Assembly (NCBI GenBank): GCA_010093605.1
Contig: MU004197.1
Coordinates: 248,001-312,000 of the forward strand
Direction: 5' to 3'
DNA: 64,000 nt
Source of the DNA: Lophium mytilinum
Taxonomy: Eukaryota
The translations under genes and the position numbers were made by a program. Positions 4,553 through 37,210 of this stretch are shown here, piece by piece. The notes under the pieces are model-generated. The model did no database searches and was not told the DNA's origin. It saw only the letters and a list, made by a program, of their open reading frames with translations. Numbering within the stretch: the stretch's first letter is position 1; each line of letters opens with the position of its first letter.

Positions 4553-4847
4553 CGTGCAGGGTTGTCCATCTCCACCATGGTTTGCTCGGTTGGTTGGTTG
4601 CCTGCCGAGGCACTAAAATTGAAGAAAGGCACTTTAGGACTCTGGTGCGACGAAATGGGGACATTGAAAGCAGCTGAAAAGCATTGGAAAAGATGAGTGC
4701 CGGCCCCCATTGCGGGTAAAGCTTGGGCAGCTTGTGATTCTTGGCGTGGTGGATTAGATATCCAAATGGAATTTCTGGCCCCAACGCTCACTTCTGCAGT
4801 GACATTTCGTGGGTGCCACTGGTATATACTCATATGCTTTCTCCTAC

Positions 4848-14600: not shown

Positions 14601-17600
14601 GATGATGGCCTCCGATGTTTGGACCGACCTCGCGCCACGACTTTCGCCTTTGGACTTGCTACAACATTTGTCATACCCAAAGCGGGAGACCTTGGATAAT
14701 AGATGGAAACTGGTTTTGATCCAGTATGGCGTCGCCCTTACCGAGCTCCAACGTGCGCAGCGACTTGTCAAAGTGTTTAAAGGCTACGACGAGAACCCGG
14801 TAGGCCTTGTGAAAGAGCTAGTCAATCCAGGCCATGAGAACTGGAATCCGAACACGCGTCCAGACTGGCTACTTCTGGAACTTGAGGGCAATCTTCTGAT
14901 ACGTCCGGTGCAAGCTCGGATCGCGATGGAAATGATCGAACCATCATCCAATATGAACTCAATCCTGCAACTCAACATGGGCGAAGGAAAGTCTTCTGTG
15001 ATCGTACCAATCGTTGCGGCGTTTCTCGCCGACACAACAAAACTGGCGCGAGTGGTTGCGCTGAAGCCACTCGCTCCCCAGATGCTAAATACGCTGATCT
15101 CTAAGTGCAGTGGTCTGCTTGGTCGACCTATCTACTATATGCCTTTCTCTCGATCACTTCGGGTGTCAGCCGAGCAGGCCATAGACATTCGCGGGCTCTA
15201 CAAAGAATGTATGCGCTCAGGCGGAATTCTACTCTCACAGCCGGAGCACCTTTTGTCGTTTGAGCTGATGGGTTACGAGAGCATCCTCTCCGACCGGTTT
15301 CTGGTGGGACGTGAGATGATCGAGACTCAGCACTGGCTACAACAACACGCGCGGGACGTTCTTGACGAAAGCGACGAGATTCTTAGTGTTATCTTTGAGC
15401 TTATATACACGATGGGTACGCAGCGTCACATTGAGTTCAGCTCCGATCGATGGACTCTGATTCAGAGTACTTTGACACGACTCTCTGAGCTTGCGGGCGA
15501 GACCCTTGCGAAGTTCCCGGAAGGCGTCGAGGTGGAATCAAAGAACGGACCCGGGAGCTTCCCTCACATTCGCATCCTCGACTCAGAAGCTGGGGAATAT
15601 CTCATCATGAATCTCGCTCGCGACATCTGCACCAACGGGCTGCCGACGGGTCTATTGAAAGTCCGGAATCTGTCAGAACAAACCCGCGATAATCTCATCA
15701 AACTCATTACAGATCCGAGGGTGCTGAAACAAGACATTGCATCGTTGCTCAAAATGAAAGAGGACAGCAAGTTGGACCAGTTGATGTGGAATACAATTCT
15801 TGTTCTTCGGGGGATGATAGCGTGTGGAGCCCTGAGCTTTGCTTTTAAGGAGAAGCGGTGGCGCGTTCAGTACGGTCTTGACCAGAGTCGCTCCCAGCTT
15901 GCTGTTCCATTCCGAGCAAAGGATATGCCGTCTGCCCGAGCGGAGTATAGCCACCCAGACACGACCATTATATTGACCTGTCTTTCCTACTACTACAAAG
16001 GGCTCTCGAACGAGGAGCTCCTGTACGCCTTCGACGCGCTTTTCCGCTGCGACAATGAACAAGAAGAGTACGAAGCTTGGATCCGTAACGTGGGACTCGA
16101 AAGCATACCTGTAGCGTTCCGGCAGGTCAAAGGGATCAACCTCCAGGACGTGGAAATGTGCAATATCGAACTCTTTCCACGTCTCCGTTATGCGAAAGGA
16201 GTGATCGACTTCTATCTCTCGCATCTGGTCTTCCCGAAAGAAATGCGTGAGTTCCCTCAGAAGCTCTCTTCCTCCGGCTGGGACATCGCGCAGATGAGAA
16301 AGCACGCCACTACTGGTTTTAGTGGAACAAATGACAGCAGATATATTCTTCCGTTGTCAATCGAGCAGTCCGATCTCGCCGAGCAGTTGCACACCAACGC
16401 TATGGTCATGTACTACCTTCTGGGAGATGAAAACAGCTACCAGCGGATTCAAGCACCACCGGGCACGGCTGTCAACGCTGCAGTACTCCTGTCTAATGTC
16501 GTCGAAGCTAAACCACCAGTACGTGTTATCCTCGATGTTGGTGCCCAAGTTCTTGATCTTGGGAACGAACAAGTCGCGCACGAATGGCTAGAGCGCACGA
16601 GCGGTCAGCCGGATGCGCCGCAAGCCGTGGTATTCTTCAACGATCAGGACGTTCTGTGTGTGCTTGATCGGAACAAGACGCTGGAACCTCTCAACGTTTC
16701 TCCGTACCTACGACAAATGGACCGTTGCCTGGTGTATCTTGATCAAGCACATACGCGCGGCACCGACCTGAAGCTTCCCGACTACTACCGCGCTGCCGTT
16801 ACACTAGGCCCGCTGCTGACAAAGGACCGGTTTGTGCAAGCATGTATGCGCATGCGCAACTTGGGCCATGGGCAGTCTGTCGTTGTCTTCGCGTCGAAAG
16901 AGATTGAGAAGCAGATACAAAGCTGTTCTAGTATACTTGTATGGGACGAGATTGGAATGGAAAGCGTGTTAGAGTGGTGCATTCAGAACACATGCACGCA
17001 GGCACGAAAAGAGCTGGCGTTGTGGGCGCAACAAGGACTACGATACCAGAAGCAGCAATGTGCCTTGGCTAAGGGCGGACGGGACCCGAAGGGTAATCTC
17101 TCTGTGCAAGTTGCGAAAACGCTCCTTGAGCCTGAGGCACAGAGTCTGGAAGAGCGGTACGGATTGGACTCGTCCAGATCACTCCACTGCATCGTCACGG
17201 ATTCCGAGAAAGAGATGATGACGGATAGGGCACACCAAGTCAATGCGATCATCCAGAAGTTGCAGAAGTATGGCATTACTTCACTAGCTGGCGCAACTCT
17301 ACAAGAAGAGCAGGAACGCGAGCTTTCGCCGGAGAACGAGAGAGAGCAGGAAATAGAGCGACCCAGGAACACGCATCCATGCCACCACGTTGTCGATCCC
17401 ATCATCGGGCGCTTTGTGCAAACTGGCAACCTATCACCCTTAGGACAAGGACGGGCGTATCGATCTGCCTTCGCCAGCTTGCGCTACACCAGCGCTGGAG
17501 AAGGAAAGCACTCCGGGATCGAAGAATGGCCCAAGCACGAACTCCTAGTCTCCGTCGACTTTGTGCAGACAGTCCGGATCCCAGATTACCAGTTCGCAGA

Positions 17601-18150
17601 CTTCTATATCCGCCCAGTGAACTGGATCCTGAGTAGCACCGACGTGCACGGAGAGGGCACATACCTAATCATCAGCCCGGAGGAAGCCAACGAGCTGCTG
17701 CCAATGATCATGTACTGGAAGCGGGTGAAGCTACACACGTACTCTGCGCGCACCCGCCTCTCCATGCGCACGTTCGAGGACCTCACCTTTTGCTCCATGC
17801 CGGCATTCTCGCCTCCGCGTTTCCCGTCGCAATCTATGCCTGTCCCGACTCTCATCAATCTTTTCGCGGGCCAGCTGTACTTCCGCGACTGGAGTGAGTA
17901 CGAGCGCGTGCGTCTGTTCTTGGGCATCTGCTACGACACGCAATATGCGAGGAGTGATGGGTTCGTGATGCCGCGGGATAGAAGCTTGGTTGCGCAAGAG
18001 CTGGAGGACTGTCGCTTTACCGTCTCGCCCGTCGGGTTCTTGAGGGCGCTTGTTAGCATTAGGCGGAAGGGACAAGGCTTCGAGCGGTCGCATATGGGTG
18101 CCCTGCTCCGTGGAGAGGCGGTGGATTTGGACGAGTTGATGGAGGGGTAG
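8655..18150 (+). CDS. Giant DUF6606/DUF3638/DUF3645-type protein with SF2-helicase-like P-loop region (paralog 1)
   Basis: Exon 1 8655-8955 (YVIDHVFLPPK), GT..AG intron 8956-9007, exon 2 to TAG 18150. Motifs QLNMGEGKSSVIVP, DVLDESDE, KRWRVQYGLD..LAVPFRAKDMPSARAEYSHPD, GFSGTND, HTRGTDLKLP, QACMRMR and EEQERE. Confidence 0.92.
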
Positions 18151-18424
18151 GTGGTAGGCGGGGTTCTATAGCGCACCCGGTGACGGTGCAGTCATTGTGT
18201 TGACTTGATGGAACAAGTATGGTGGCGTGAATGGTTGTGGTAGCTTAAAGGGATAGATGCCCATGAATCCATTGATTCTCTCCCAGCATAGGTTCACCGT
18301 GACTCGTGAGGTTGTTTGTTCTTGAAAAGGGTAAACTCTTCAAAGATGACGTTCTTTCTACGATACTAAGCCATATGTCTGGGCACACAGATCCATCACT
18401 ACTCAGCTTCAGATTGGCAAATAT

Positions 18425-19450
18425 GACACCACTGTAGGGGGTAGCCTGACTGCTAGGGAGCTACGCAGTCAAGAGGCAGTCTAATCTGCGCTGCTAGAAA
18501 ATATGATATTATCTTACGTCTTACATATCTATAATACACAGATCTATCCCTACTTAGTTCTTGTTTTTACTTACTTAACACCGCTGTAGGGGGTGGCCTG
18601 GTTGCTTAGTAGCTATCTAGTTAAGAGGGAGTCTAATTTACACTGCTTAAAACTTGACTTCGCATTCAGATCTTCGAGATTCTTAGGGGGTCCTCCAAGC
18701 AGTGGCGAACTAGTAGCCTTTAACCTCTATCTTACTACCAAGTAATAATGTATTAGTCTAGGCACCGAATCTACCACCGCTTAGCTTTTATGCTGCTCAC
18801 TCGACACCACTGTACGGGGTGGCCTAACTGTTAAGCTGCTACGTAGTTAAAAGGGAGTCTAATCTGCACTGCTTGAAATTCAACACTACCTATAGGGCCT
18901 TGTATACACAAAGATGCGTATTAGACTGCATGGAGCGCTGTTCTGAAAGGCCGATGCTACCGTCTGACTGCCCTCAAAAGCCGCAAAATCACAAAGATAC
19001 GATGTCAAAAGCCATGCAGTTTATTTTACCCTACAGCGAAAAAGATCCTCCTGAAACCGTTAAAATCCTATAACACACAGATCTACTACGCTTGGATCCA
19101 ATCTTGCTCTCTGGACACCACTGAGAGGAGTAGCCCAGCTAGTCACTAGCCAATGAGCCAAAGAATAGTCCGATCTGCATTGCTCGAAACTTGACATCGC
19201 ACCCAGACTTTCGAAACGTATGGGGGTACTCCAAGCAGTGGTAAACGGGTGTGCCTGAGATCTTTGAAATCCGGTAACACGCGGATCCGTGACTGATATA
19301 GCTTTAATATTGCTCACTTGATACCACTGTAGGGGGTGGCCTGGCTGCCAAGCAGCTAATTAGTCAAGAGGTGGTTCAATGTACACTGCTTGAAACTCAG
19401 CATCACCTTCAGACCTTCGAAATCCTTCGGGGGTCCCCTACACAGTGGCA
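18425..19450. repeat. Array of ~125-bp degenerate repeats with inverted ends (CCACTG...CAGTGG), family A
   Basis: Unit starts at 18429, 18581, 18807, 19118 and 19324 (consensus near cttgacaccactgtagggggtggcct..gct..agtcaagag..gtctaat.t.cactgct.gaaa). Matching CAGTGG ends at 18705, 19241 and 19448. Confidence 0.85.
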
Positions 19451-19467
19451 ACCCAATGTGCCCATCC

Positions 19468-20369
19468 TTAGCGACGTTTCACCAAATTTAACCCCCGTTC
19501 CCCATTTACCAACTTATCCACTAACCACGCCGGAAGCCCCCAGGTTATGAACCGCACAAGTCCAGCCAACGCTCCCTGCCAAATAGGCCCCCTAGTACCA
19601 CCTAGAATGTCTTTAACCAGCTTTTCAGCCAGCACTTGGACTTTCATGGCCTTTCTCTGGTGATCCATCCGCTCCTTGTAAGCCTCATCCTCAACACCGC
19701 AGTAGTACGAGCTTTCGGGCAGCTTCATCCGCCCCCCCGGCTTGCCAAACATAGGCGTATCAGCGGACCCGCACATGACCGTCACAACGCGCACGCCCAA
19801 CGGCTCCAGCTCAAGGCGCAAAATCTCCGACATGCGCGCTTCAGCTGCTTTAGAGCTGGCGAAGACGCCTAAGCGCCAGATCAGCCTTCCATTAATCAAT
19901 CCGAGGTAGACTTCGCCGACTTACCCGTCCACACCATCGACAACACCGCATCAATAGAACTCTGATTCGCAACAATCCCCTTCGCCTCAATAAGCAGCGG
20001 CGCAAACGCCTGCACCACAGTAAGCGGCCCCCAGACATTAACGTCGTACAGCGCCTTCGCCTCGGCGACGTCGACGTCCAGCAGCGGGCTGAGCACCTCG
20101 ACGCCGGCGTTGTTGATGAGGACGTCGAGCCGGCCGCCCGTGCGTTTCGCGACCGTGTCTCTGCATTTTGCGATGGTTTCGGGGAGCGTGACGTCTAGCT
20201 CGAGGATCTCGATGTTGGGGAGCTGCGAGAGGTCTGCGGCGGTGGAGACGTCGCGCGCGGTTGCGAAGACGTGGAAGTTGCGGTCGTGGAAGTTTTTGGC
20301 GAGGGCCCAGCCGATGCCGCCGGTGCTGCAGCCGGTGATGAGGACGGTTTTCTTTTGGGTGGTGGACAT
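19468..20369 (-). CDS. Short-chain dehydrogenase/reductase (Ayr1-like classical SDR)
   Basis: TVLITGCSTGGIG, LDVLINNAG, DVNVWG, and FASSK at the YxxxK position. One intron 19924-19869 (GTAAGT..TAG) joins the two track ORFs in frame. Confidence 0.9.
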
Positions 20370-21370
20370 GGTTGTGGTGGTAGTGGAGGCGGGGATGGGT
20401 GAGTAGGTGTTGTTTTATAGTTGTGGGTAGTAGGTTTGTTTGCCTAATGGGGTGAGAAATGCGTACGACGACGTTTTAGGAATTAGATTGGCATATAGTG
20501 GTTTTCAGCGAATCGTTGGCAGCTAGTTTCTAATTATAGGTACGTAGTGATACGAACATAGTAAAAGAGGGGGATCGATCGCCGACAATAAGCATATCTA
20601 GCGGCGGCGCTCCTGCATTAGCGGCGGCGCGCGAGTGTTGGCGGCTTCGTAAGGCGGATGCCTGGGTGGTATGGATTACGGACATGGCGGACTTGACGGA
20701 CATGCCGGAGATGTACCTAAGTAGACCTCCAAGATATGCGGCACTGTTCACGATATGTTGTCCTGGACTTGTTGTTCCTTCTCATTATTCGACATGCTTA
20801 CTTCTGTCGATGATAGCCCATACCCCCGGCTTGCAACTTCTTGAAATCTCCGGTCCGAAGATCGACTGCTTCTACGGGATGTCTCGTTGCATTAGCATCA
20901 GGTGTGAGCATCTTGGGACAGCTATGAGTAGTGTAGATATATAGAGGGTATCAATGGAGCCAGGCCGATTTCATTACTCACGAGCTTCTTCTCTCCATAC
21001 ATACTAGTTGCCTCGTTGCTCATGACGTATATTTTGATAAGGCGGTCTTTATACAGCTGCGACGGTTGGAATGGGGTATAGCTTTCGATGCCATGGGTGT
21101 CGAGCCTTACTTCAGCGTGGACGAGCGCGAAGAGGCTGAAGACGCGGACGGTATTCTGTGAAATAGGGATCTCTTCAATTCTAGGCCACGTTCGATTTCA
21201 AAGTTTGGACGAGACTTCGGATTTGGGCATTGATAGTAGGTAAGCTGGAGTTCAATTAGACCTAAGGAAGGCCGCACATACTTGCTACAGTGATCTGTTC
21301 TATGTAGAAGTCTGCACCGCAAGCAAGCAGAACGCGCCCAAGTTCAATGGACCACTCTCCAGGAACACAG

Positions 21371-22366
21371 CTAGTGAAAGGTCAGAGGATGATCGAAAGA
21401 CCCGTCCGTGGATGCTACTACCTTCGCCAAATCCCTGCCGTCGTTCACTTCCCTCAAGGCAATCCTCATCTCACTACCATACGCTGTTTGCTGCCTTTGT
21501 CCTCGCCAGTCCCTCGTGGGTCGCGGGTGGTCGCTCGGCCTCGCATTCGCCATGAATCCCTTGAGATGCATACTACTCGCGAATTGCCACCAGTCTCCAT
21601 ATTCCGGTTGGTAGGAAAGCCCAACAACTGCATCCACCTGGCTTTCAGGTAATCTACCGACCAACTCGTAAGCGAAGCCCATGATACGCCTAGAACTCAT
21701 CCCAGGGCAGAACACCCAAACTATTGGCATGAGTCTCTCAAGATGGGCCTGCATGTGAAGAACTGCCGCCTTCCAGAAGGACTGCTGGAACATCGTGTCG
21801 CGCTCCTCGAGGTACTTAAGCAATGCCGGAGGTACCGTGAGGTCGATCGCCACACGCTTAATAGTATCGGGGATATTCTGGAAGGTGTTGCTCCAATCCT
21901 GAACAATCCTCAATGCGCCTGTATCCCATGTACTGACCGAGGTTACGAGCATTTTGCGGACCAGTGACTCGACAGTCAACCGTGGGAGTTGATCTTCCAA
22001 CGTCGCCAAGGTCCACCTTGGCTCCTCCGAGCTGAAGAGCTGTACCTGGATCTCCTCGAAACTTGACCATTCTCTCCTCGTTGATTCTGCAAGATTCCGG
22101 TAGTAGCGCTGGACCCTGTTCAGATGGCGGACCGCAGCTGGGGAGGAGATTCTCAGGATGGATTTGGGGCCTGGGAGCCAGCCACGATGGATCTGCTCCA
22201 CATCGGCTTGCAGGATCTTGCAAAGACCATTGAGCGGGGTCGAAAGGCTGAAGGGATGTGGGCCGTTTGAGCTGGCCTGGGCTCCACCGACATTGATTGT
22301 GATGGTCTCGGCGACAATCTGCTGTCGGATCTCGGCGGGAAGGGTGGTGAGGGTTGGTGGAGGCAT
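21371..22366 (-). CDS. Hypothetical protein with F-box-like N-terminus
   Basis: About 330-codon ORF from ATG 22366: MPPPTLTTLPAEIRQQIVAETI (LPxEIRxxI motif). Confidence 0.65.
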   Translation of the reverse strand: MPPPTLTTLPAEIRQQIVAETITINVGGAQASSNGPHPFSLSTPLNGLCKILQADVEQIHRGWLPGPKSILRISSPAAVRHLNRVQRYYRNLAESTRREWSSFEEIQVQLFSSEEPRWTLATLEDQLPRLTVESLVRKMLVTSVSTWDTGALRIVQDWSNTFQNIPDTIKRVAIDLTVPPALLKYLEERDTMFQQSFWKAAVLHMQAHLERLMPIVWVFCPGMSSRRIMGFAYELVGRLPESQVDAVVGLSYQPEYGDWWQFASSMHLKGFMANARPSDHPRPTRDWRGQRQQTAYGSEMRIALREVNDGRDLAKVVASTDGSFDHPLTFH

Positions 22367-22765
22367 CTGGATGTGGGTGCCACGGTCGCTTGGTGGAGTG
22401 GGTCTGGGTTGTTGTGGTCCGATCAAGGGTTGTTGATGGTCGCGGAGGTGATGCGGCCAAGAGGTTGGCCTTTTTAGGACACGGGCATGAGTGAGAACGA
22501 ATAGTGAAGGGACAACCTCGCTTACAGCGCCAAGGGAAACGGATCTACCGCTACGACTATGAGGACGCTGGAAAGCAATGTGTCTCCGGGCATCCCAAAC
22601 TGGCGATAGAGTTCCAGGTCTGGTCGAATAGGATGCCGTTCGAATGCCCGGATATTACGGACCTTAAGTTGCACGGAACTCACCTCGATGGACTTCCATA
22701 ATTCTCTATGTCCTTCCGCGGCGGGCCCGTCTAGGTCAGCCTGTATCTTCTCACTGATCGACGCC

Positions 22766-23141
22766 CTTACTAATCCTTGGCGCGCTGATGACTTTCTACC
22801 TATATAAAGTCCCCTCGTCCACGCGACCTTTCTTTCTCCAGGCTTCTCACGGTGTTTTACAGCCATGATCATGAAGTGCCGCTACCAAGGGAAAGCCTCC
22901 ACGCCACCTGGATGACACCGGACGGGCGGGGGCCCCTTGGGGCGCGCTCGCAACTTGATCGTATCTACATGGTATTCTTTGCGCGAGCGTTGGAGCAACT
23001 CCTCTGAAAGTTATGGCTGTAAGATTTCCTTGAGCAGGTCACCAAGCACTGAAAGGTATTGGTGGATCCGAGACCGTTTTTGCACCATGGCAAGGTGGAG
23101 GGCATTGGTTCTCTGGCCTTGTGCCGGAAGCTGAAGTCTTC
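22766..23141 (+). ncRNA. Putative structured ncRNA unit U1 (type 1, one module)
   Basis: TATATAAA 22801-22808 followed by a pyrimidine leader (ttctttctccaggcttctc) and a ccaaggg..cccttgg stem. Ends in gggcattggttctctggc-cttgt-gccggaagctgaagtcttc (23100-23141). Homologous to 24276-24831 (-). No shared ORF. Confidence 0.5.
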
Positions 23142-23386
23142 TTAATCTCCGCTCTTGGAGAGAGTGTTGTATTGGGCTGTGGTTCTTAAGGGTGGTGTTA
23201 AGGTGGTGGAGATCATCTGCAGTATCAAGGCACGGTAATCAGCGAAGCCCCCAGGCGAAGAGAGGCTGGAGTTTACGCGTATAGATGGTAATAGCATACA
23301 GACGTCATAGTGAAGGTTATCATTAGTCTTCAAAGCTGCACAATGCCAAAGCACCAAGCTTGAGGGAACATCGCAAATGGAAAAAA

Positions 23387-23912
23387 GAGACTTCAGTCTC
23401 CGGCACAAGGCCGAAAGACCAATGCCCCCGGGTCGGTCCAAGTGTCGCGTTTGGGTGAGAGCAATGTTGCAAGGGGAGAGAGTGGTCAGCCGGATGTAAC
23501 GACCTCACCGCTGGAGCTGCTGCTCTGAAAAGCAACAGCCACCACTCTTCTTAAGGAGGTTAAAATAAAAGTAAGAGACAAGCCTGTGTTAGCAGTCCTC
23601 CACCTCTTGAGACCGCTCTTGCCGCCATGGCTCTTGAATACGTAGGGGTGCTCCTAGCCTCTCGCACTCTGGTGTTGACGGAGAAAGAATCGTAGGTCCT
23701 CCTAGTGAAACCCCATGGCCACAACTGTCCGGGATCGACAGCTCTTGGGGGAGCGTGACCTTCCCTAGGCCAAGGGAGTGGCCACCTACCGTTGGAATCG
23801 AAGGAGGGAGGTGCGGACGAAGAAAGGAAATCCAACGCCAAAAGTAGGGGCGTTTAAATACGGCAAGAGGGAGGCGATGGCTTGACGACTTGACGAAGCC
23901 CGTGACTCTTCC
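23387..23912 (-). ncRNA. Putative structured ncRNA unit U3 (type 2)
   Basis: TATTTAAA at 23860-23853. Colinear with 37211-37780 (+), with the shared 3' motif at 23427-23389. Confidence 0.5.
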
Positions 23913-24275
23913 ATATTATCAGGTGATTCCCACACCTATGGCATGTCGCTGTTAGTCACTGTCACGAGCGAGGTCAGGTCTGAATCAATACCACGGGTTA
24001 GCTTGTTAACGTGATCACGTAAACGCATCTTAATTCTGTTCTTGTTAACCGAATGTAATATCAACCTCTAAATAAGGGGATTAGAACTTGTTATTCGTGA
24101 AGGTACTAAGGAGTTTACGGGAGTCTTGCATAGCTAAGGCACTACGGAATGATGGTCGGCAGTGAAATGGAATTACTATAACAATTGAAATCATTACGAA
24201 TTATAGTGAAGCTCAGTATCAACTTTGCCAGAATCCAAAAACAAAACTCGAGTTCAAACTTGCCAGTTCGAAAAG

Positions 24276-24831
24276 GAAGACTTCAGTTTCCAGCACAAGG
24301 CCAGATAACCAATGCCCTCCGCCTTGCCACGTTGCAAAACCGTTTCACCCCAAGGAAATGATACAACAAACGAGATCATGATGCTCAAACGATCGCGACT
24401 AAGACTCCATACCATTCAGATATCATCAAAGCGCTCACGCACCCCAAGGGCCCCCGTCTCCCGGTCGAGCAAAGATGACTGGGATGCCCTTGGTGATAGG
24501 ACACTCCCTCAAGGATGTTGTATAACCCGCATGAGAAGCAAACTTTCGATAATTGGCGACCTGCCCAAGGAACTAATACAATAAAAGAGATCATCATGCT
24601 CAAACGCTCGCGACTAAGACTACATACCATGTAGGTATCATATCAAAGCACTCACGCACCCAAGGGCCCCCGTCTCCCGGTTGAGCAAAGGTGGCTGAGA
24701 CGCCCTTGGTGAAAGAACACTCCCTCAAGGATGTGGTAAAACACGCATGAGAAGCCTGGAGAAAGAAAAGTCGGGTGGGCGAAGGGGGTTTATATAGGTA
24801 GAAATTCCTGAGCTTGCCAAGGATTAGTAAG
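24276..24831 (-). ncRNA. Putative structured ncRNA unit U2 (type 1, module duplicated in tandem)
   Basis: TATATAAA at 24796-24789 with the same upstream and leader sequence as U1. Two ~215-bp tandem modules (24349-24540 and 24565-24755), then the shared 3' motif at 24320-24276. Confidence 0.5.
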
Positions 24832-26537
24832 CCTGTCAACCAATCAGAGCGTACTAGATAGCGGCATGGAATGTCTATGAGTCGCGCGTTCTCCGGCATC
24901 TCCCGAGCCTCACGTGCCGTCGCTCACATGATCATTTTGGTGTCAGGAACGAAGTCACGAAGTCACCCCAGCCAATGTCTACAAAACATTGTTGGGCTTT
25001 TCTCATGGAGCTTCTCAATATTTGCCCAACTTCCCACCTAGCTGTGTGTATAATCCGTTTTCCCCTTGCCAAAGCTATGGATTGAAGCAAACTGCATGAT
25101 TATAGGAATGGCGAAGCCTAGTGCAATCGACTTTGCTGAAACGGTGATAGGCAAGGCTTCCACCGCAACGTCGAATCACACTCTTGGACGGACCTAAACC
25201 CCCTTGTGTCAAGAACAACAAGGTCCAGGAGTGCCATTGATGTCTGTAGTTGTCCAACCAGTCAAGAATTTGCAGAGTTGCAGCGAATGCGGAAACGTCG
25301 GCCATATTTTCAAAAACCATTCGGCTACCCCGTGTCTGTTCAAAAGACGAAAGGAACGGCAGCGTTCAAGAGAGCGTATGAGATCTGATACAAGTCGGAG
25401 GGCAGAGATCAGCGTAGGAAGAAGGGGAGGTGAACAATCCAGGATGTGCTCCTCTTCAGAGCAAGCGACTGGAAGGGTTGGAGGGGAGCTTGGCAATTGG
25501 GCTACACTTGAAAGCGAGGATAGGGATGAGCGCCGGGTGGTTGTTGTCTGTCATGAGACAGGATACCCCCATAGAACGAAAATGGCCCACGGCTGCAAAG
25601 GCGATCCCAGTGCTAAGAGATGTGAATCACGCTCTCATAATAAGATCGTCTTAGGCCGTCAAGAGCCTTAGTCGCCCCCGCTTCTTAAACAAGTGGTGAA
25701 GTGATATTCCCAATATGCTAGTTCCAACGATAGAGCTGGCACAGTGACAATGATGCACCATTTTAGGCCATAAAGACTGAATGAAAGCTAAGAACTCGCT
25801 TACTGCTAGATTCCGTCGAGTGGAGGGCAAGGAGAAGATGGCTCAACGCCGTGTTTCTGACCAAATTGGAGGGTAGGAGGTGAGCGAAGGCGTTGAGGGG
25901 TTGTATATTCGATGGGTCGAAAGCTACTTTGGGGAATTTCTATTAGAAGCAAGACGTGTAAATGGTCATGCGCGACAAGGCCCTTTTCTCTTGCTAGATA
26001 ACGAATACGCTAGGGCAAAGCGCGATTTATGGAAGGTCAATTGGCATGCCTGAAGCTAGGCTGAGTGTATGCCCATGAATGAGTGTTCTTCTAGAACTTC
26101 ACACTATTCAGGTCTCCTATTTTCTCAGGCATGACCGGTTCCTTGTCATTGTTGATGCAGTCAAAGCACCCGCGCCGCTTTTCTACTTCAAAAATTGTAG
26201 CAGAACACTTCCTTTGCGACTTGCAACCGGGCCCATGCCTTATAGTTTGGTTATCTCGTCCCTAGGCCCTTATTTGCCGACGTGTTCTCCCTTCGTGACT
26301 CTCGAATGCTCGGCCCGGCAAAATTTTAATCCATAGCTGTGGCATTCACTAAGTCTCCGGGAAAACGTCTTGCTGCCTAGAAACGAATCCGCCCACGAGG
26401 AACACGAAACCTCTGCACCATCTAAATCATCCCTACCTTCAGCGACATCGCCAACCCTACAGCAACACCATCTCCCTCCCCTCTCTTTGTCCCTCGACCT
26501 GCCACTTCCTGGGGTTTCAACTACAGTCGCCGTCACC

Positions 26538-29500
26538 ATGACGGGCGACAAGGACGCTCTCGCGTACATCATCGCGCACACGTTTCTACCGCCGCGAGTT
26601 CCACAGGGCGATGATGAGTCAACATCAATGAGCGAGGCTCTATATAACAAATTCTTGGAAGGGATGATCAGATACCAGGCGTTACTCGGGGAAGAAGAGG
26701 GTGCTTTGTGGGATTTGTGTATCCAGATGGTCAAGAGCGTTTGTACAGAGCTGGATACAAATAGGCTTCTTGTCAAGATCGAGTCGTTGGCCGTCGGAGG
26801 TATGTGTAGTATATATATTCACATCGAGCGATCACTAATCGTTATTGGCAGAGTCTTTGGCATTGCATATTTCCGCCCAGAATGCAGCACTTTTTATCCG
26901 GAAATCCGAATCTAGTACGGCCTTCGGGTCATTCGAGCTCTCTCCAAGTACGAGGATGGTAATGAGCTGCAAGGGCCGTCTGCGCCGTTCCATTCCTGGT
27001 CCGGCTATTGATATACCCAACACAGTCCTAGCAGATATGACTTTCCGAGATCCTGTGGTCGAAACACTCGTCAAGTTTTCCTCCGATACCCCATATGTGG
27101 TAAAGCCATCCACCAAAAAGGCCGGATCGACAGTCAATGAGATTCGCGAGACCATTGACCCTATCTTGGTTACCGGCATGCTGACTGGGGCGTTACGAGC
27201 TGTCGGGACTCCTGCAGATGTGGTTCGCATTCAAAAGAACACTCGAGATGATGTCCTTTGGGACAACAAGCTGAGGCCGTGGCGTCGATCACCTTTCTGG
27301 CTACTGCTACGTGCTGCGGTTCACACTACCTTGGCGCAGATTGATACAGACCTTGCACGAGCGACCCATCGCTACAAGCTGTTCATGATATTCTTCCTCG
27401 GAACCATCTTGGATTCGGCGATAGACGCATCACCACCGTTGCCGAGCGAACTCCTGTTCGTCATGAGCGCGAAAATTTCTCGGCGCATCCTGAAGCTGGA
27501 CATTCGTTTTTCTTTACTAGGGACCGAGAAGACGCTCTTAATTACCCAAGAACTACTCCGGAGTAGATGGAATAAACTTGAGACAGAAAAGGATCCGGCA
27601 GGGATTTGGGGAACATGGAACGACGCGAGCTTTAGAATCTCGGCTTGGGAAGATGTCGCGTTGAAGCTGCCAAAATTCCGATCGTACCTGGACAGTCTCG
27701 CCAATCGACCTCTATGCTCCTCAACGGCAGTCGATTTCAAGCCTGAGCGATTATATCGCATTAAAGAGTCTAGCGAAGCATTGTCATTTCGCATGATAGA
27801 CCCTATCTCTCTACCTACTTCACACGCGAAGCATATCATACTTGCTGATATTGAACGGTGGGTAGCCAATTGCCTTCCATCTTGGCTCACGAACAACATC
27901 CATTTGCCAACTACGGTAGTCCATCTTGCGGCAGTTCTAAAGACCTACTCCACCGCGGCAGTGCCTGCATACTCGGACCATCCTGTGCTACTCTCGCGGA
28001 TGTACCTTACCGTGATGGAAATATGGATTGGCATGGACAAAGCAGTCATTGAAGCCCATCCTGTCGTCGGCCAGGTCTCTGTCGGGTTTCCCCCTGCGTT
28101 CCTGGAGCCTCTGCTTCTACCTTCAAAGGAAGACATGGATCGATTGTTGTCTATAGAGCAATACCTTACCGAGAGGAACCGCTTCGATCCGTCTGGAAGG
28201 CAGACAAATTATTTATCATCGGAAGCCAATGGCCTAGCATATAAGTTCTACGACAGTTCGACGGCTCTAAGGGAACTACGCGAGAAGATAATGCTAGATG
28301 CTGAGAAAGAGCGAGCCAAAAAGTGTGACCAGATGCAAATCGCGAAGGAGAGCCATAGTAGACGACTGGCAGAGATCAACGAGCGCGAGCATTTTCATCA
28401 GTCTAGAATCAACAAACGAGGGACTACAGTATCGGAACATATCGAAACGCAGTGCCAGACGTGCGTGGCTTTAAACAGATTGAACGCAATGACAATCGAT
28501 GTCTATGAGATGCCAATACCTTTGGACGAAGTGCAGGCCCGGCTGGTAATGTTTGAGCTAGGTATGCCTGAAGAAGTTCGACAATGGCGAACCGCTACCT
28601 ATCGATTGCAATTTGAAATTATAGCATCCCAGGCCCAACAATCCGGGCGGACTAAAGCGAAGGAGAAGATCTACTTCTTACGGGACTATTGGCCGCTGAA
28701 CCGTTACCGGCATAATGAGAGTCGTTGCAGCCTCGAAGAAGGACTACAGCTTGGATCGGAAACGAAGTCATTTGTTGTCGCACATTATAGAAAGCCAACA
28801 GTGTCTGCATCGCTCAGCGAGAACGATGTCATCGTAAACCACGGTATGAAGTACAACATGTATGATTCGCGCACATCTAGACCAGCAGAGGGCTTACTCA
28901 GTCTTTGCGATTTCGATATTCGCTCACGTTGTACTTTCAGGATCCCGAAAGGATCTTATAGCAAGCTGGATTTTGCGATCTCCGATACCAAGCAGACATC
29001 AAACCAAATCACCGCTCTGCAGTCTGATTGTCCGACAACAATGCACCTAGACGAGTTCACTGCTTTCGGGAATTTGCGTGCTGGTCACCGAGTGCAATGG
29101 TTAAGCATTGCAAAGGAGCTCGCCGCTAGAGAGCTGTCGTTCGGACGATACGAGGTTTGTGCCTTGTTTGTCCAGGCATGTTGGCAAGCGGGGCCATCCG
29201 AGCCATCGAGTTCACTCCGCGAAGCTCACCTTATACTCGAACTGGAACACGTCGGTCTGACACTGCTAACGACGATGGAAGATAATTTGTCTCTGATTAC
29301 GAAAAACTGGGAAGGCACTATGGCAGCTCGTATCTTCACTGTGATTGCAGCCCGTTTATTATCACTTTGCACTCATCAAGATCTCCGTACAAAGGCTCGA
29401 TCATTTCTACGTCGAGCTCGGGACATTTCCCTCGCCTGGACTCGGGAGCTGCAAGAAAAGGTTCACAAAACCATTGATGACGTCGAGCGTAGTAGGCTGC

Positions 29501-32500
29501 GTGTAAAGCTATTGGAAGCCGCATTGGTTTGTCATACAAGCTTTGGTGTAGATTTTCTTTCGTCGTCCGATTCTATCTCGCCTCAAGATGATGTTTCCGA
29601 TGCTCTCGAATGCCTCATCACGATTCAACAAAACTACCCCAGAGACAAGCGGAGTATCCCATTTTCTATCCGCGACCTCTTGATGGAGTCCTTCCACCTG
29701 TGTCACCGTTATGAAAACAAAATGCGGCACAGAATTCTAGAAGATAGTTCAGGGATCGATGCGGCAATAGGACGTATATGGAAAGATTACCAGCCTTGTG
29801 GAGAATGGACTATGGTAGCCGCACCTAACGGGCATTGGGTTACAACATCCACGAAACCCTCGATCACACGTGAGCCTAGGAGCATTCATCTAAGCCTACT
29901 GACGGGTGAGCTCTTGGTTGATGGCAAGCCTATATCGAGACTACCCCCTGAATTCGAAAAACACCCAACCTTCAAGCGGCTGTTTGGCAAGCGTATTCTC
30001 GACGTTGTCTCTTCGGATATGAACGGCATGGATTACAGAGTTCGAAACCACATTGAGGGATATGGAATCCATTTGGCAATGTGTGATACAGAGTTGATTA
30101 TTCATGCAATCGCCGAAGACGGTCATGAAATTCAGCTCATTCCGTCAAGCAAACTGGAAGGAAACTTGCCAAATGCTCTGGTCCAAGATCACGTCCACTG
30201 GCGCCACCTTGACAATGAAGTTGTGGAGTGGCGTCTCGCCAAGTCACCATGGATCGCTGAGGTAGTACCTTGGAAACTTATCCAGAACAGCGATAGCACT
30301 ACTTGCACATACCGATTGCACCAGGGAAACAAGATTCTCGTTGAAAATGATAGCTCCATCGGTCATGTCTTGGCAGCTTTACTTGCGCCGCTCGAGCAGA
30401 CGGACAATATCCAGATCACTCTTGATGAACTTGCCAGGACGGTTGAAGTCCATCTTCCGCGCCTCAATCTGGATTTCGCCCTCAGCGCCGACATGTCCAC
30501 TCTGGAGTCGAAACAATTCCGTGGTTACATGATAGATGACGACCAAACAGTCGGGACCATGACTGGATTGAAAAACAAGCTTGTTTTGAGTAACCTCGAT
30601 AGCTCGAAGCGGTGTATTATTATTCCATACGGGAAGGTCAGTTGCGTCAAGAATAGCAATCACGTAGACGTCACGATTGACGCTGGTGGTACAAGCCATG
30701 TTTCATATTACGTGTATCATGTCGATTTAGTCCTTGGAAGATTGACGGGTAACGACACTTTGACGGGAAGTTTGTTCAAAGCGTATCTGCACGCTATGAC
30801 TTCCCATTGCCTGCCCGACCGACTGACGGGTAGGACGGGGACTGAGGAGGCGCTGAACTATCTTCAAGGCGCAGCGATTCGGTCATATACGACCTTCACT
30901 GATGATGATGCAGACCTCCTATCGCTTCTCGCTCGTCTGACGCCGCAGCGAGTCTTCTATCCCAAGAACAGCAAGCTCATGCAGCAAACAGAATGGTCAG
31001 ACCTGCCAGCACACTCTCAACACAATCGCTTCGGGACGGAAGTCCGGGCCGTCATAGAGCATTACAACAAATTGAATTTCCTTTCCAATCAGCTTATTCC
31101 GAAGATGGATCTGCCTCAGCTTGACCAGCACCTGCTCGAACGAACTAGCATTCGGGATGCTTCATACCGTGGTGACGGTTATGGTGCTGAGCTTTACACA
31201 ACTCAACACGATTCTGTTTACGTAACTCGAGATGATCAAGAATGGGGGAAAGTAGAACTTCGATCCTATGAAGCAGCGAGGCTGGTCTGTTCATGGTCTG
31301 TAGATCTTAAGTGCGACTTCCGCATCTGGAACTTCCTGCGAGACGGGGGAAAAGCTCCGATTCCAGGAGTAATTGCTCAGAATAAGCCCTATTTTGAACT
31401 AGTTCAGAATCTAAGTTACGATCCGGCGTGGCTAGATGCCGGAGACGACTTTCTTGCTCACGTCTGGTGGTCATTGCAGTCCCGCCTGTCTACAGCTGTT
31501 GAGGCTGTGGATAAGTACAAGATCATGCTATTCCTTTGCACGCTCAGTTCATACGGCCGGACTTCCGAAGGAAAAGCCAAGACTCTCCTTGCGTTTGCGA
31601 TTGTCCCTAGGCTTCGCGCTTTACGGCCTCCTCGCATCCACGCCTTCGATCCTTACGGTCGCACCAAGCCCTCTAGACGAGACCTCCTGGAGTTGGCAAG
31701 GCAGTACCTGCGCAACCCAGCTAATTCCCCAGAAGCCTATTTGCGTAAGCTACGGCACGAAAGTAATGTCGAATTCGAGAATCGCTGCAGACGCAAATAC
31801 GAGGAGGAGGTTGATCGGAGTGAGCAATTGTTTGTGGACGTACTAATGAGACACTGGCTGGTTCCATTCGATGGATTTCCTCGCCTTTTCGAATTTGAGT
31901 CTATCACACAATACATGGATACGGCCGCTGCAGTGCAGATTGCAGAAAGAGACTTTTGGGATATCTCTGACAATTTCCAAGCCCGAGACTATATCGACTA
32001 TCTTCAGGCAATTTTGAACAGTCTCAACATTGAAGTTGGCCCCTCACGGCCGTATTCTTTGCCACTGTCCCCAGCAAGCAAGTCCGAAACGACCCGGTAT
32101 ATCGGATACTATGATCTTTTCCAAACTTCTCCACCCACCATAAGCCCGCCCGTCCAAAGCCCAGATTTCTCACAATGGATGAGAGCTGCCGCCGAGGATA
32201 CCATGAAGCATGGAAAACTGGATGAACTGCTATTGCGACTCCGCTCGAAGCACAAGGATAGCTTTCCAGCCGAGTACATGCAAGAGCTTCAGCGAAGTTT
32301 GGACGCTTTAAACAGCTCGTCTCCCATCACGGATCTCGACGATCTACGCGAAGGGATTGCCAATGTCATTCGGGAATACCTGAGAGTTTCTTTGCACCGC
32401 CTTGAGTCAATTGAAGATGAAATACTGAACGCGATGAAAGACGGAACCAAAGAGCTGTCTGAGTTCGACTTGTTTACCATGCTAGCACCACGACTATCTC

Positions 32501-35500
32501 GGATGTCCCTCTTGGAGCACTTGTCAATTAAGAAGCGCAATGTAGTATCTCCAGACTGGAAGAATGTACTCATCCAGTATGGTGAAGCAATCAGCGCCGT
32601 TCAGCGTGCTCATCGTTTGCATCAGGCCGTCCGCAACCCCCACGCAAACTCCACGGAGCTATCGAGAGAACTTACCAACGCTAGTCATCCGAACTCGACA
32701 TGGGACACGCACAAGTACCCAGATTGGCTTCTCCTAGAATTGGAGAACGACATATTGATACGCGACGAGCAGGTAAACATTGGCCTTTCCATGATTCATC
32801 CGAAGGACAACAAAAACTCAATCTATCAATTGAATATGGGCAGAGGAAAATCAACCGTCATAGTTCCTATGGTCGCTGCGGCGGTCGGCGATGGGTTCAA
32901 AATGACGAGGGTAGTGGTGCTGAAATCTCTAGCTCCCGAAATGCAAGCTACCCTTATCGCGAAGTGTAGTGGACTGCTTGGGAGAACGATATACTCTATG
33001 CCGTTCGCAAGGTCTCTTAAACTTCTACCCAGCCTGGTTAGAAGGATTCGCGAGATCTGCCAAGAGTGCATGCGCACAGGCGGTATACTTCTTGCTCTAC
33101 CTGAACATCTGCTATCGTTCGAGCTGATGGGATATGAGAGTATCTTGAACAAAAAAGCAGCACTTGGCAAAGAACTTTGGATCACTAAGCGCTGGCTACG
33201 GGATAACGCACGCGATATTCTTGATGAATGCGACGAGCTGCTCAGCGTTGCTTCTGAGCAAATATATACGATGGGTACGCAGAGCCAGATTGCGTATGGC
33301 GCGCAACGATGGACGATGGTCCAATATCTCTTGGCCATTGTAGCTCGAAAGGCGAAAGAAGTTTTTAATTCGTTCCCCGACGGAATTGAATTTGAAGACA
33401 AAAATGGACCTGGAAGCTTCCCCCAGATTCGAATCCTGCAACCGCAAGCTGGCGATCTGTTGCTAAAGTCTGTTGCTCGCGAAGTGAGCTCGAACGGATG
33501 CCCTATCGCTCATTTTAGGGTCCGAGATCTCTCAGCAGTGTCGCGAGACAAGATATACAGAGCAGTCACAGAAATGGATTCGTCTGAGCTAGAGGACTTA
33601 CGCCTGTTAAGAGATCAGGGAAAGATCGATCAGCCCACTTGGAACTCCATCCTGATCCTTCGTGGGTTGATCGCCTTTGGGATTTTCAAATTCGCTTTTG
33701 AGGAAAAACGCTGGCGGGTACACTATGGCCTTGACAGAACGCGATCTGGCTTAGCTGTTCCTTACCGCGCAAAGGACGTGCCTTCTGCGAGAGCAGAATA
33801 TAGTCATCCCGATTCGACTATTGTACTCACTCACTTGAGCTACTATTACGAAGGGCTACCGGACAAAGAGATGAGAAGTACTTTTAGTTCTTTGTACCGC
33901 TCCAATAACGCGCAAGAAGAATACGAGTCTTGGGTTCGGGATGCCGACGGAATCCCGGTGGAGTATCGCCACATAGAGGGCGTTAATCTTCAAGACACCG
34001 TTAGGTGTAGTGTCGATATCTTCCCGCACCTTCGTTTCGTTAAGCGAGTCATCGATTTCTACCTTTCTTCGCTTGTACTCCCAGTCGAATTGAGGGAATT
34101 CAAGCAAAAGCTTTCCGCCTCCGGTTGGAATATCGCGGAGGACCGAGCCCACCCAACAACTGGCTTCAGTGGCACGAATGACACTAGCTACCTACTTCCA
34201 CTTTCCATTGCTCAATCGGACGTTATGGATCAGTTACACACAAATGCGGCTGTTCTAAGTGATATTCTTGGATTGGAAAATTCGTACAAGAAAATCATGG
34301 GCACATCCACCAGCCGGCCCGTGAGCGCAGAGATGCTACTCCAAATGGTCACCGGTCTAGATCCACCAGTACGAGTAATCCTTGACGTCGGCGCGCAAGT
34401 CCTCGACCTACGCAATGAAGGTGTTGCGCAACGGTGGTTAGATATCGTGCCTGTCAATGAGGCGGAGGCGGTCGTTTTCTTCACTGAAACCGATGTCCTT
34501 TATGTTCTCGATCGAAAGGGCAAATTAGAGCGTCTTGCAGTTTCTCCGTTTTTGCGCCAGATGGATCGCTGCTTAGTTTACTTCGATCAAGCGCATACGC
34601 GTGGAGCAGACCTCAAGCTCCCGAAGCATTATCGAGCAGCAGTAAATCTAGGGCCTCTATTAACAAAAGACCGGATCGCGCAGGCATGCATGCGGATGAG
34701 GGAGCTTGGCAAAGGGCAGTCAGTTGTGATGTGTGCCTCGGAAGAAGTGGAAAAGCGAATTCGGGATACTTGCCGTATAGATGCAGCGGGCCATGTAAAC
34801 GTCTCACATGTCTTGGAATGGTGCATTGACAATACCTGCACCCAAATTCGCAAGGAAATTCCCCTGTGGGCAAAGCAGGGACAGAGATACTTGGATCAGC
34901 AATCTACACTTCTCAGGATGGACACAGACATCAAAGATAGCTTGCCGCTAAACGTAGCAGAAGAGCTCCTTGAGGCCGAAGCACAAGATTTGGAGACTCG
35001 ATATGGGGCCAAACCGCAAAGCCTGCTTCCTGATTTCGTCTTCTCATCAGGAGAAGGCGGGTCTCGGAGTCGATCAACCAAGCTGAATGACATAATTGCT
35101 CGATGTTACAGATTCAACATCAATTCTTCCAGCGGTACCACCTTGGGAGATGAGCAAGAACGAGAGCAGGAGCTATGCCCCGAGAACCAGCGCGAGCAAG
35201 AAGTGAATCGGCCTCGTCCCATGCAGCCTTTGAAGCATACTGTCCATAGAAGTATCAAGCATTTCGTCGAAACGGGTATACTTCTGGAGGATGCAGGTAC
35301 GCAGCCAGCATTCACAAGTCTAACTTCTACAAGCGCCGCGAAGCACTCAGGTCTGGACGAGTGGCCTCAAGATCTTCGAGTTACTATGGATTTCGCCAAG
35401 ACTGTCAAAGCACTACCGGGCCATCTTCTTGACAAGTATCTTAAACCGGTAAACTGGATTTTGAGTGCACACCACGACGCAGGATCACAATATCTCATCA

Positions 35501-35997
35501 TCAGCCAAGAAGAGGCTAATGAGCTTCTCCCGTCAATTCTTGGCGGCGGCAAAGTCACCTTACATGTCTATACTCCCCGGGTTCGGCACTCAATGCGATC
35601 CTTCGACGATCTGTCCTTCTGTGAAATCCCCCAGGCGGCCACTAGCACGGTACCTCCACAGATTGCCACCTCCATCGGTTGCTTCGCAGGCCGAACCTAT
35701 TTCCCGGACTACGAGGAGTATCAGTCAACGTGTGACATGCTGGGGCTTTCGTACGATACGCCGGGTGCACACAATGATGGTTTTGTTCCACCGAAAGATA
35801 GGTCTACGGTGCGATTAGCTCTGAGCCAGTATACAATTCGTCATTGCCCGTTTACAGTTTCTCAGATCAACTTGCTCAGAGAAGTTACAGCCATCAGGCG
35901 AAAGGACCAAAGCGTTGAGCGCTCGCACATGGGAGCAGTGTTCCGGGGAGAAGTTTTGAGTCGGGGGGACTTTGACTTGCCATTGCGTCCCCGTTGA
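26538..35997 (+). CDS. Giant DUF6606/DUF3638/DUF3645-type protein with SF2-helicase-like P-loop region (paralog 2)
   Basis: ATG 26538 (MTGDKDALAYIIAHTFLPPR), intron 26800-26851 (GTATGT..CTAAT..CAG), exon 2 to TGA 35997. Motifs QLNMGRGKST, DILDECDE, LAVPYRAKDVPSARAEYSHPD, GFSGTND, HTRGADLKLP and QACMRMR. Confidence 0.92.
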
Positions 35998-36258
35998 TGA
36001 TACGTCAAGTAGTCCCATAGATGTAGATATGGGTAACCAATGGGTTTATAAGTGACGGTCTTGCTGTAGTATGGGTAACTTTGACCGACTTTCATAGCGT
36101 TTTAGGTACTGGCAATCCAATTGTTCCTCTATTTCCAGAAGCTTTAATAGTGATCAAACATGTTCTTGCACTAACTATATCTTACTATCCCTGCCATAGT
36201 AGGCGGTAAGTCTGAGCGCACGAATATGAACCGGCGCTAGCTCTAACCTTGCGCGCCC

Positions 36259-37122
36259 AACACTACTGTGAGGAGTAGCCCAGCTAGCTAGTAGCTGGCT
36301 CATCAAAAGACAGTCAAAGTTCCGCTCTATCCAATTTGACATCGTATTCTGGTCTGAATTAGCTCATGAAGGCGCCCCAAGCAGAGGCAACTGGACATCT
36401 TCATTCCCTTTTCTTTAGTGCTGATACTCATTCGGCTCCATACACCTTCGCTTTAGAACCCTAGATGTGTTCTCAGTGAAGTTAGACAGACGGATATAAC
36501 GCTACTAGGAGTTCCCTCTTGCTTGCTTAATACCAATGGCAGGAGCAGCCCCGTCGTGTCGAATTCGGCCAATCAATAAGTGTCTTGATTCCTACTGCAT
36601 TATCCTTATCATTGATTTCCCTCGCGTCATATTTCCGCACTCAAATTCAGCCCTGCTTTCGTTCAGCCTTGCCTGCTTCACACCAACGTAAGGGGTGGTC
36701 CAGCAAGCGGGTGGTGAGCCAGTCAAGAGAAAGTCTAAATTAAATTCCTATAACCTTACCATTCTTTCAGGACGTAATAAGGTACACGTCCGTACACCAA
36801 CCTGAATATTTAGTACTCCTAGTTTACACTTGCTTATTTGATGCCACTGTGTGGGTTACCTCAGCTTTGAGCTGGCTAAATCAGTAAAAGGCAGTCTGGT
36901 TTCCACCGTTTCAACTATAGTATACTGTTGGCGTAGGTATATGTAAAGCTAGCCGGAATTACCACTGCTTCCGAGCCAATTTGAAACCTAGAAACCACTG
37001 TCAGGAGCACCCCCGGTGCCTGGAAGTTGGCTAGTCAAATGGTTCGTCAAACTTCGCTGCATGAAGCTTGACATTGCGGCTAGACTTGTGAGGTCCTACG
37101 AAGGTACCCCGCGCGGTGGCAA
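36259..37122. repeat. Second, more degenerate array of family A ~125-bp repeats
   Basis: Unit starts at 36263, 36533, 36683, 36844 and 36995. Ends CAGAGG 36387 and CGGTGG 37119 give 125-bp units. The 36263 unit shares aggagtagcccagctag with the 19118 unit. Confidence 0.75.
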
Positions 37123-37210
37123 ACGAGCTTACAAGAGCTTCTAGACTGCCGGTGATCTAGAGCTCTCAGCGAGAGACAGTATCACGTGACCGAGAAAAAA
37201 ATTGACGAGT

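What the first reader, a model, noticed from the sequence alone, without database searches (positions are those of the whole stretch)
18425..37122. Both giant DUF3638 genes are followed ~270 bp after the stop by an array of the same ~125-bp inverted-end repeat
Seen: the arrays begin at 18429 (stop 18150) and 36263 (stop 35997), in the same orientation, with five recognisable units each. Complete units are 124-125 bp from CCACTG to CAGTGG (e.g. ccactgtagggg 19324 .. cccctacacagtgg 19448), separated by unrelated spacers. Several start-to-start distances are 150-152 or 160-161 bp. The proteins have diverged heavily, yet this non-coding array is retained at the same place. Inference: gene plus array may be one functional cassette (helicase-like protein with a repeat-derived RNA or DNA binding array), or the units are MITE-like elements with a 3'-of-gene preference.
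Basis: partly seen in the sequence, partly recalled or inferred. Interest (0 to 1): 0.7.

Follow-up and report, generated by a model that had tools for sequence, protein, structure and literature searches.

The report
Dispersed fungal repeat arrays behind genes
The repeat arrays behind the two giant fungal genes are real, but they belong to a wider family of short, length-conserved tandem repeats that also follows an unrelated gene and occurs elsewhere in the genome, so they are probably not a dedicated partner of these genes.

Summary
Both arrays exist as described: five units each, starting 279 and 266 bp after the stops. Corrections: only 5 of 10 units carry the inverted right arm, conservation extends at least 20 bp beyond the supposed left end, and there are no target-site duplications. 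A third array of the same superfamily (14-15 monomers of 160-172 bp) begins 293 bp after an unrelated orphan gene in this window. In the DNA run, 99 of 113 laid contigs are under 99% alike and excess depth sits almost only on array 1, so the family is dispersed. None of 70 testable DUF3638 loci from distant fungi has such an array. RNA covariation is not above shuffles. Best reading: an undescribed short-array, satellite-type DNA family with a 17-bp box, whose long monomers carry the box as an inverted pair. Very few indels suggest selection on length. Why both paralogs carry it is unexplained; close relatives could not be checked. The scan noted a 151-bp family with a 17-base box elsewhere in this genome (e1-7554657, unchecked).

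The parts
9118..18150 (+). Giant DUF6606-DUF3638-DUF3645 gene 1 (main ORF; an ORF at 8655-8966 holds the first part of DUF6606)
   Evidence: residues 2450-3010 are 100% identical to P0001, named Lophium mytilinum by the source; an RNA? contig covers 17251-18145 with 0 differences
18380..19460 (+). Array 1: five monomers anchored at 18429, 18581, 18807, 19118, 19324; three complete; possible array-3-type monomer in register at 18957
   Evidence: 18957 lies 150 after 18807 and 161 before 19118 but scores 1.3, below the shuffled maximum of 5.5
18581..18705 (+). Complete unit with inverted box arms
19118..19241 (+). Complete unit (124 bp), 15 of 15 arm pairs Watson-Crick; a subtype closest to the first unit of array 2
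19324..19448 (+). Complete unit, best folding (z -3.2 on +, -2.4 on -); ends 20 bp from the stop of a convergent short-chain dehydrogenase ORF
19468..20369 (-). Short-chain dehydrogenase gene (two ORFs), convergent with gene 1; array 1 lies between the two 3' ends
26845..35997 (+). Giant DUF6606-DUF3638-DUF3645 gene 2, 47% identical to gene 1, four-fold sites near saturation
36210..37130 (+). Array 2: five more decayed monomers anchored at 36263, 36533, 36683, 36844, 36995; complete units 36263-36387 and 36995-37119
44864..45661 (+). Last 265 codons of an orphan gene (432-aa P0122, only self hit), upstream of array 3
45940..48330 (+). Array 3: 14-15 monomers, spacings 160-161 and 170-172 (one of 90), sharing the box region with arrays 1 and 2
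   Evidence: AA/TT/TA period 10.8 bp, p=0.005

Best explanation
A lineage-restricted, dispersed, short-array satellite-type DNA family. SHOWN: the basic monomer is 150-172 bp and carries a box (CRCTGTNNGRGGTRGCY) in head-to-tail arrays; longer monomers (206-270 bp) add a second, inverted copy of the box, which gives the 125-bp inverted-end unit; the family occurs on many other contigs and in transcribed sequence from other loci; arrays here sit just beyond a 3' UTR-sized distance from a stop, two of three between convergent genes. INFERRED: arrays spread and are partly homogenised by unequal exchange, interlocus gene conversion or circle reinsertion, and persist where they miss promoters; the scarcity of indels and the roughly 10.7-bp steps between monomer lengths reflect selection on spacing for a DNA-binding protein or nucleosome phasing; both DUF3638 paralogs carry an array through local spread, or through an old co-duplication later refreshed by conversion, not because the protein uses it.
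For: Cross-trained matrices: arrays 1/2 place 12 of 14 array-3 anchors at tail probability <0.01, array 3 places 10 of 10 array-1/2 anchors at <0.001, and all 5 right arms match the left-arm matrix on the minus strand at 1e-4 to 4e-4. Box: 15 matches vs 1.2 expected, 14 in the arrays (pattern drawn from the arrays). Dispersal: 113 contigs laid, 99 under 99% alike; depth 1099, 644 and 335 over array 1 vs about 115-120; units in the middle of 19.4- and 28.1-kb contigs; joints showing successive units on other contigs. Not a passive relic: four-fold sites 194 of 673 identical (28.8% vs 24.8% by chance), stop-to-array segments do not align (189 of 300 shuffles as high), yet units are 54% identical between arrays. 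Indel scarcity: 300 substitutions to 2 gaps within array 1, against 80:14, 32:4, 15:2, 13:1 and 18:0 in other non-coding duplicates of the window. No array behind 70 distant homologs.
Against: The neighbours of the other copies were not seen, so enrichment at DUF3638 genes in this genome is not measured. Contigs are not loci. Two of three arrays in the window follow DUF3638 genes, which random dispersal does not explain. The consensus fold is much better on + (-25.9 vs shuffled -10.3 +/- 2.8, 0 of 200) than on - (-15.3, 5 of 200), which a pure DNA element does not predict. Phasing is weak: length classes p=0.056-0.085, arrays 1/2 dinucleotide period p=0.079, and a control region also peaks at 10.25 bp. 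Substitution:gap ratios for arrays 2 and 3 are only 13-21 with the same aligner. No large master array was seen.
Confidence: 0.6

Rival explanations
1. A non-autonomous mobile element of REPIN/BIME or rolling-circle type: the inverted-box doublet folds as single-stranded DNA, is moved by a trans-acting enzyme, and grows into tandem arrays with variable 3' truncation.
For: Inverted box doublets with internal hairpins; fixed left part and variable right part; no TSD; many copies 90% or more alike elsewhere; extragenic position. REPINs are extragenic inverted doublets forming hairpins (PMC3116915, abstract).
Against: No transposase family among 39 ORFs scanned in the window; array 3 is a plain 160-172-bp tandem with no full doublets seen; element ends could not be defined; no empty sites available.
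Confidence: 0.17
2. A structured RNA module array acting in 3' UTRs or read-through transcripts (four-helix 125-nt unit).
For: Consensus fold on + far better than column shuffles and than the - strand; G.T exceeds A.C in the small hairpin, 11 vs 4; units occur in contigs of the RNA? run from other loci; same orientation as the upstream gene in 3 of 3 arrays.
Against: Covariation 0.229 vs shuffled 0.249, 380 of 500 shuffles as high; arms G.T 10 vs A.C 8; only 2 of 5 complete units fold better than shuffles on +, both also on -; half the units lack the right half; no Rfam match to E 1.
Confidence: 0.13
3. A functional cassette of DUF3638 protein plus array, limited to Mytilinidiales, in which the protein binds the array or its RNA.
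For: Both paralogs have an array at 266-279 bp in the same orientation although synonymous sites are nearly saturated; best cross-array match 78% over 54 bp; likely orthologs of both genes, P0002 and P0006, list the same longest contig length in Mytilinidion resinicola.
Against: 0 of 70 testable homologous loci carry an array; same superfamily behind an orphan gene; about 100 other contigs against 2 proteins of this species among the 120 listed of 1852 hits; no constant-length unique spacers.
Confidence: 0.07
4. An ordinary MITE with terminal inverted repeats and TSDs, clustered by insertion preference.
For: About 19-bp imperfect inverted arms in 5 of 10 units; dispersed copies.
Against: 0 of 5 complete units have a flanking duplication of 3-10 bp, 1 of 5 a 2-bp match; flanks are conserved between copies; regular tandem spacing.
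Confidence: 0.03

Closest known systems
Euchromatic short-array satellites (Drosophila 1.688 and Rsp-like; PMC7403614, passages read)
   Same: Short clusters of diverged monomers at many loci, often near genes; truncated monomers; spread proposed through gene conversion and extrachromosomal circles.
   Different: Fungal; monomers 150-172 bp with 206-270-bp variants; inverted-box doublets; no large heterochromatic block seen; spread mechanism untested here.
Nucleosome-length satellites with a conserved box (alpha satellite and the 17-bp CENP-B box; PMC8122249, passages read)
   Same: Nucleosome-scale monomers, a short conserved box, inverted repeats.
   Different: Small intergenic arrays between genes, not centromeric blocks; box sequence unrelated; no binding protein known.
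Bacterial REPINs/BIMEs (PMC3116915 abstract and outline; PMC3337134 start of abstract)
   Same: Extragenic inverted doublets of a short motif predicted to form hairpins, in clusters.
   Different: Eukaryotic host; no RAYT-like partner found; direct nucleosome-length tandems dominate.
MITEs (definition recalled, not from a call)
   Same: Short, non-coding, inverted arms, dispersed.
   Different: No TSD; arms are internal to the conserved unit; tandem organisation.

Membership tests
Short-array satellite DNA | Head-to-tail tandem non-coding monomers | tested here: met
   no Pfam or Rfam assignment inside arrays; longest stop-free stretches 99, 70 and 133 codons
Short-array satellite DNA | Monomer of nucleosomal length | tested here: met
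   150-161 bp in arrays 1/2 and 160-172 bp in array 3, plus 206-311-bp spacings
Short-array satellite DNA | Dispersed at many loci | tested here: met
   (99 of 113 contigs under 99% alike; contigs, not loci); third array
Short-array satellite DNA | Concerted evolution (within-array similarity above between-array) | tested here: inconclusive
   within array 1 68%, within array 2 51%, between 54%
Short-array satellite DNA | Large heterochromatic array or extrachromosomal circles | not testable with these tools
   no genome held
MITE | Inverted repeats at the termini | tested here: not met
   arms in 5 of 10 units, but conserved sequence continues outside them
MITE | Target-site duplication | tested here: not met
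   0 of 5 with 3-10 bp, 1 of 5 with 2 bp
MITE | Autonomous transposase partner | not testable with these tools
   none among 39 window ORFs; genome not held
REPIN/BIME | Extragenic inverted doublets of one motif | tested here: met
   5 of 5 right arms match the left-arm matrix on the minus strand
REPIN/BIME | Associated RAYT (HUH) transposase in a bacterial genome | tested here: not met
   fungal window; no transposase family among 39 ORFs
Structured non-coding RNA family | Compensatory covariation above chance | tested here: not met
   five sequences only, so low power
Structured non-coding RNA family | Expression as a defined RNA | not testable with these tools
   only contigs of one RNA? 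run; no raw reads
Gene-plus-array effector system (CRISPR/TIGR-like) | Array kept beside homologs of the gene | tested here: not met
   0 of 70 loci (36 clusters at 95%, 23 at 85%), homologs 38-48% identical; close relatives not available
Gene-plus-array effector system (CRISPR/TIGR-like) | Unique spacers of near-constant length | tested here: not met
   spacings 150-311 bp; inter-unit sequence partly homologous

The most novel reading that the evidence does not exclude
A eukaryotic counterpart of bacterial REPIN/BIME arrays: a box that spreads as a folded inverted doublet through an unknown trans-acting enzyme, grows into helically stepped nucleosome-length arrays just beyond gene 3' ends, and is kept by selection as a terminator-side boundary or binding platform, with giant DUF3638 genes among its preferred or protected sites in this lineage.
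Probability: 0.12. Interest if true: 0.65.

Novelty: new member of a known kind. Interest (0 to 1): 0.33.

Why it matters
Short dispersed satellite-like arrays are well described in insects and mammals; my searches (listings only) showed no description of this family or of such arrays in this fungus. A family that diverges 30-45% in sequence with almost no length change in array 1 points to selection on geometry in fungal intergenic DNA, which can be tested with a genome-wide profile and nucleosome mapping. The more exciting claim, a giant enzyme with its own RNA or DNA array, is not borne out beyond this locus.

Tried and rejected
Whole genome not held, so copies and neighbours could not be counted directly. 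Rfam: 0 matches to E 1. Tandem Repeats Finder does not detect the arrays. Viral contigs: 0 exact matches to a 28-base pattern. Nucleotide profiles, covariance model and exact box: no relevant hit in 80 of 80 loci. Ten of the 80 loci were dropped from the de novo test for having under 600 nt after the stop; 80 of 346 confirmed relatives were returned. High scorers were inspected or explained: L013/L015/L018 a 17-bp minisatellite, L033/L034/L036 one 73-bp duplication, L045 AT-rich DNA (L013, L011, L033, L045 read), L025 16.0 not read. Minus-strand 9-nt microexons: rejected, GT donors in 3 of 10 units and no spliced joint listed (table cut). Coding repeat: rejected, periods not multiples of 3. 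No RNA holder is on record; the gene-1 contig of the RNA? run stops at 18145 and no listed piece from this locus covers the arrays, which is no evidence on their expression. Orphan protein: no Atlas hit. DUF3638 region: no solved-structure match; helicase activity was not tested, sources name these proteins ubiquitinyl hydrolase or P-loop NTPase. Bacterial promoter scan uninformative. DUF3638 literature: 6 papers listed; one passage read, which concerns a polymorphic predicted effector and no array. No supplements were read; repeat libraries in supplements of genome papers could already hold this family.
Full report
Setting. The window is fungal. Two ORFs of 3010 and 3050 codons (9118-18150, 26845-35997) carry DUF6606, DUF3638 and DUF3645. 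Residues 2450-3010 of the first are 100% identical to a protein that the source names Lophium mytilinum; the nearest relatives are from Mytilinidion resinicola (76% and 74%). No whole genome is held.

Observation. A profile built from five units finds ten units at E<=2.4e-5, five behind each gene, and nothing else below E 0.32. They start 279 and 266 bp after the stops, on the gene strand, with spacings 152, 226, 311, 206 and 270, 150, 161, 151. Five units are complete (124-125 bp) and align with one gap. Two corrections follow. The other five units lose similarity after 75-90 bp. And the sequence before the inverted left arm is conserved: 0.52-0.54 pairwise identity over 20 bp, 0.31-0.37 over the next 30, 0.24-0.30 beyond. 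So the repeating unit is a 150-161-bp monomer with longer variants, and the 125-bp inverted-end piece is internal to the long variant.

A third array. At about 45940-48330 lie 14-15 monomers spaced 160-161 and 170-172 bp, one 90. The first anchor is 293 bp after the stop of an orphan gene whose only database hit is itself. A matrix trained on arrays 1/2 alone puts 12 of 14 array-3 anchors below tail probability 0.01; the reverse training puts 10 of 10 below 0.001 (the register between the families was set on one unit). Whole-unit profiles do not cross-detect significantly, so the shared part is the box region of about 34 bp. The box CRCTGTNNGRGGTRGCY has 15 matches at two mismatches against 1.2 expected, 14 of them in the arrays (pattern drawn from the arrays). 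All five right arms match the left-arm matrix on the minus strand: the inverted end is a second copy of the box.

Dispersal. On window 17250-37200 the DNA run X1 (possibly the source of the window) laid 113 contigs, 14 at 99% or more, 28 at 95-99%, 71 at 90-95%. Depth is about 115-120 except 1099, 644 and 335 over the three bins of array 1; array 2 shows little excess (126). Listed pieces put units in the middle of contigs of 19.4 and 28.1 kb, and joints show successive units on other contigs (tables cut). The excess equals roughly 8 kb of aligned foreign sequence. Contigs are not loci and their genes are not shown. Run X3, guessed to be RNA, has depth in 9 of 30 bins, covers gene 1 to 18145 without differences, and holds contigs of 1.7-3.0 kb with units from other loci. 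The family is thus dispersed and partly in transcribed sequence.

Link to DUF3638 genes. A scan of metagenome contigs with a C-terminal alignment returned 80 of 346 relatives, 38-48% identical. Nucleotide profiles, a covariance model and the exact box found nothing relevant in any. A de novo self-similarity test, which scores the three arrays 49, 22 and 54 and four control regions 11-13, found no comparable array in 70 loci with 600 nt or more after the stop (36 clusters at 95%); the high scorers were a 17-bp minisatellite, a single 73-bp duplication and AT-rich DNA. No Mytilinidiales DNA was available, so a lineage-limited link stays open.

Not a passive relic. The paralogs are 47% identical, four-fold sites 28.8% against 24.8% by chance, and the stop-to-array segments do not align; yet units are 54% identical between arrays, 68% within array 1 and 51% within array 2. 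The arrays therefore arrived later, were refreshed by conversion, or are under selection. Array 1 shows 300 substitutions for 2 gaps, against 80:14, 32:4, 15:2, 13:1 and 18:0 in other non-coding duplicates here; arrays 2 and 3 give 13-21:1, where the aligner may add gaps. Monomer lengths step by about 10-11 bp; phasing of eight length classes gives p=0.056-0.085, the AA/TT/TA signal p=0.005 at 10.8 bp in array 3 and p=0.079 in arrays 1/2, with one control region also peaking near 10.25. This is suggestive of selection on geometry, not proof.

RNA or DNA. The five complete units share a four-helix consensus that beats column shuffles on + (-25.9 vs -10.3 +/- 2.8) more than on - (-15.3 vs -9.3). 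Against this, covariation is not above shuffles, G.T and A.C oppositions are balanced in the arms (10 vs 8) though not in the small hairpin (11 vs 4), only 2 of 5 units fold significantly on their own and do so on both strands, and Rfam has no match. With five sequences the power is low. MITE status fails on TSDs and on the conserved flanks.

Mechanism. Most likely (0.6) a dispersed short-array satellite-type family, spreading by unequal exchange, interlocus conversion or circle reinsertion as proposed for Drosophila euchromatic satellites (PMC7403614, passages), with a conserved box and nucleosome-scale length like other satellites (PMC8122249, passages). The 270-290-bp offset is read as the first free position after a 3' UTR (inference; no poly(A) data). 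Rivals: REPIN-like mobile doublet (0.17; PMC3116915 abstract), structured 3' RNA module (0.13), Mytilinidiales-limited cassette (0.07), ordinary MITE (0.03). Unexplained: why both DUF3638 paralogs carry an array, and what binds the box.

Prior work. Six papers mention DUF3638 (listing; one passage read); searches on this species and on fungal satellites (listings) showed no description of the family; supplements were not read. Verdict: real, undescribed as far as searched, a new member of a known kind; interest 0.33.

Noticed in passing
window 45940-48330: Third, larger array (14-15 monomers, 160-172 bp) of the same superfamily, between an orphan gene and a convergent ORF ending at 48573; AA/TT/TA period 10.8 bp.
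   Followed up: yes
window 22749-24848: Two inverted 101-bp homologous ends, each with a TATA-like word, face inward across non-coding DNA with a 216-bp duplication; an RNA? contig covers 24076-24742. Resembles the promoter-driven non-coding units of note e1-7639938 (unchecked).
   Followed up: no
window 23388-23867 and 37268-37778: An inverted, roughly 83% identical 500-bp non-coding duplicate; the second copy begins about 150 bp after array 2.
   Followed up: partly
window 40185-40500: 122-bp tandem repeat, 2.6 copies, 85% matches.
   Followed up: no
window 52638 and 43992 (minus strand): Weak solo matches to the array-3 matrix (12.9 and 11.6; maximum in 10 shuffles 5.5), possibly decayed single monomers.
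   Followed up: partly
L013, L015, L018 (264 bp after the stop); L011: A 17-bp minisatellite of variable copy number starts 264 bp after the DUF3638-gene stop in one unrelated fungal lineage; unrelated in sequence and period.
   Followed up: partly
window 2-1561, 49965-50306, 57423-59225, 4848-6118: F-box-like, HET-domain and fungal rhodopsin-domain genes and several ORFs without Pfam match surround the locus, a gene set typical of variable fungal regions (recalled).
   Followed up: no
genome-wide notes: Earlier notes list many other old, box-conserving tandem arrays in this genome, which suggests a genome-level tendency worth one joint study; unchecked.
   Followed up: no
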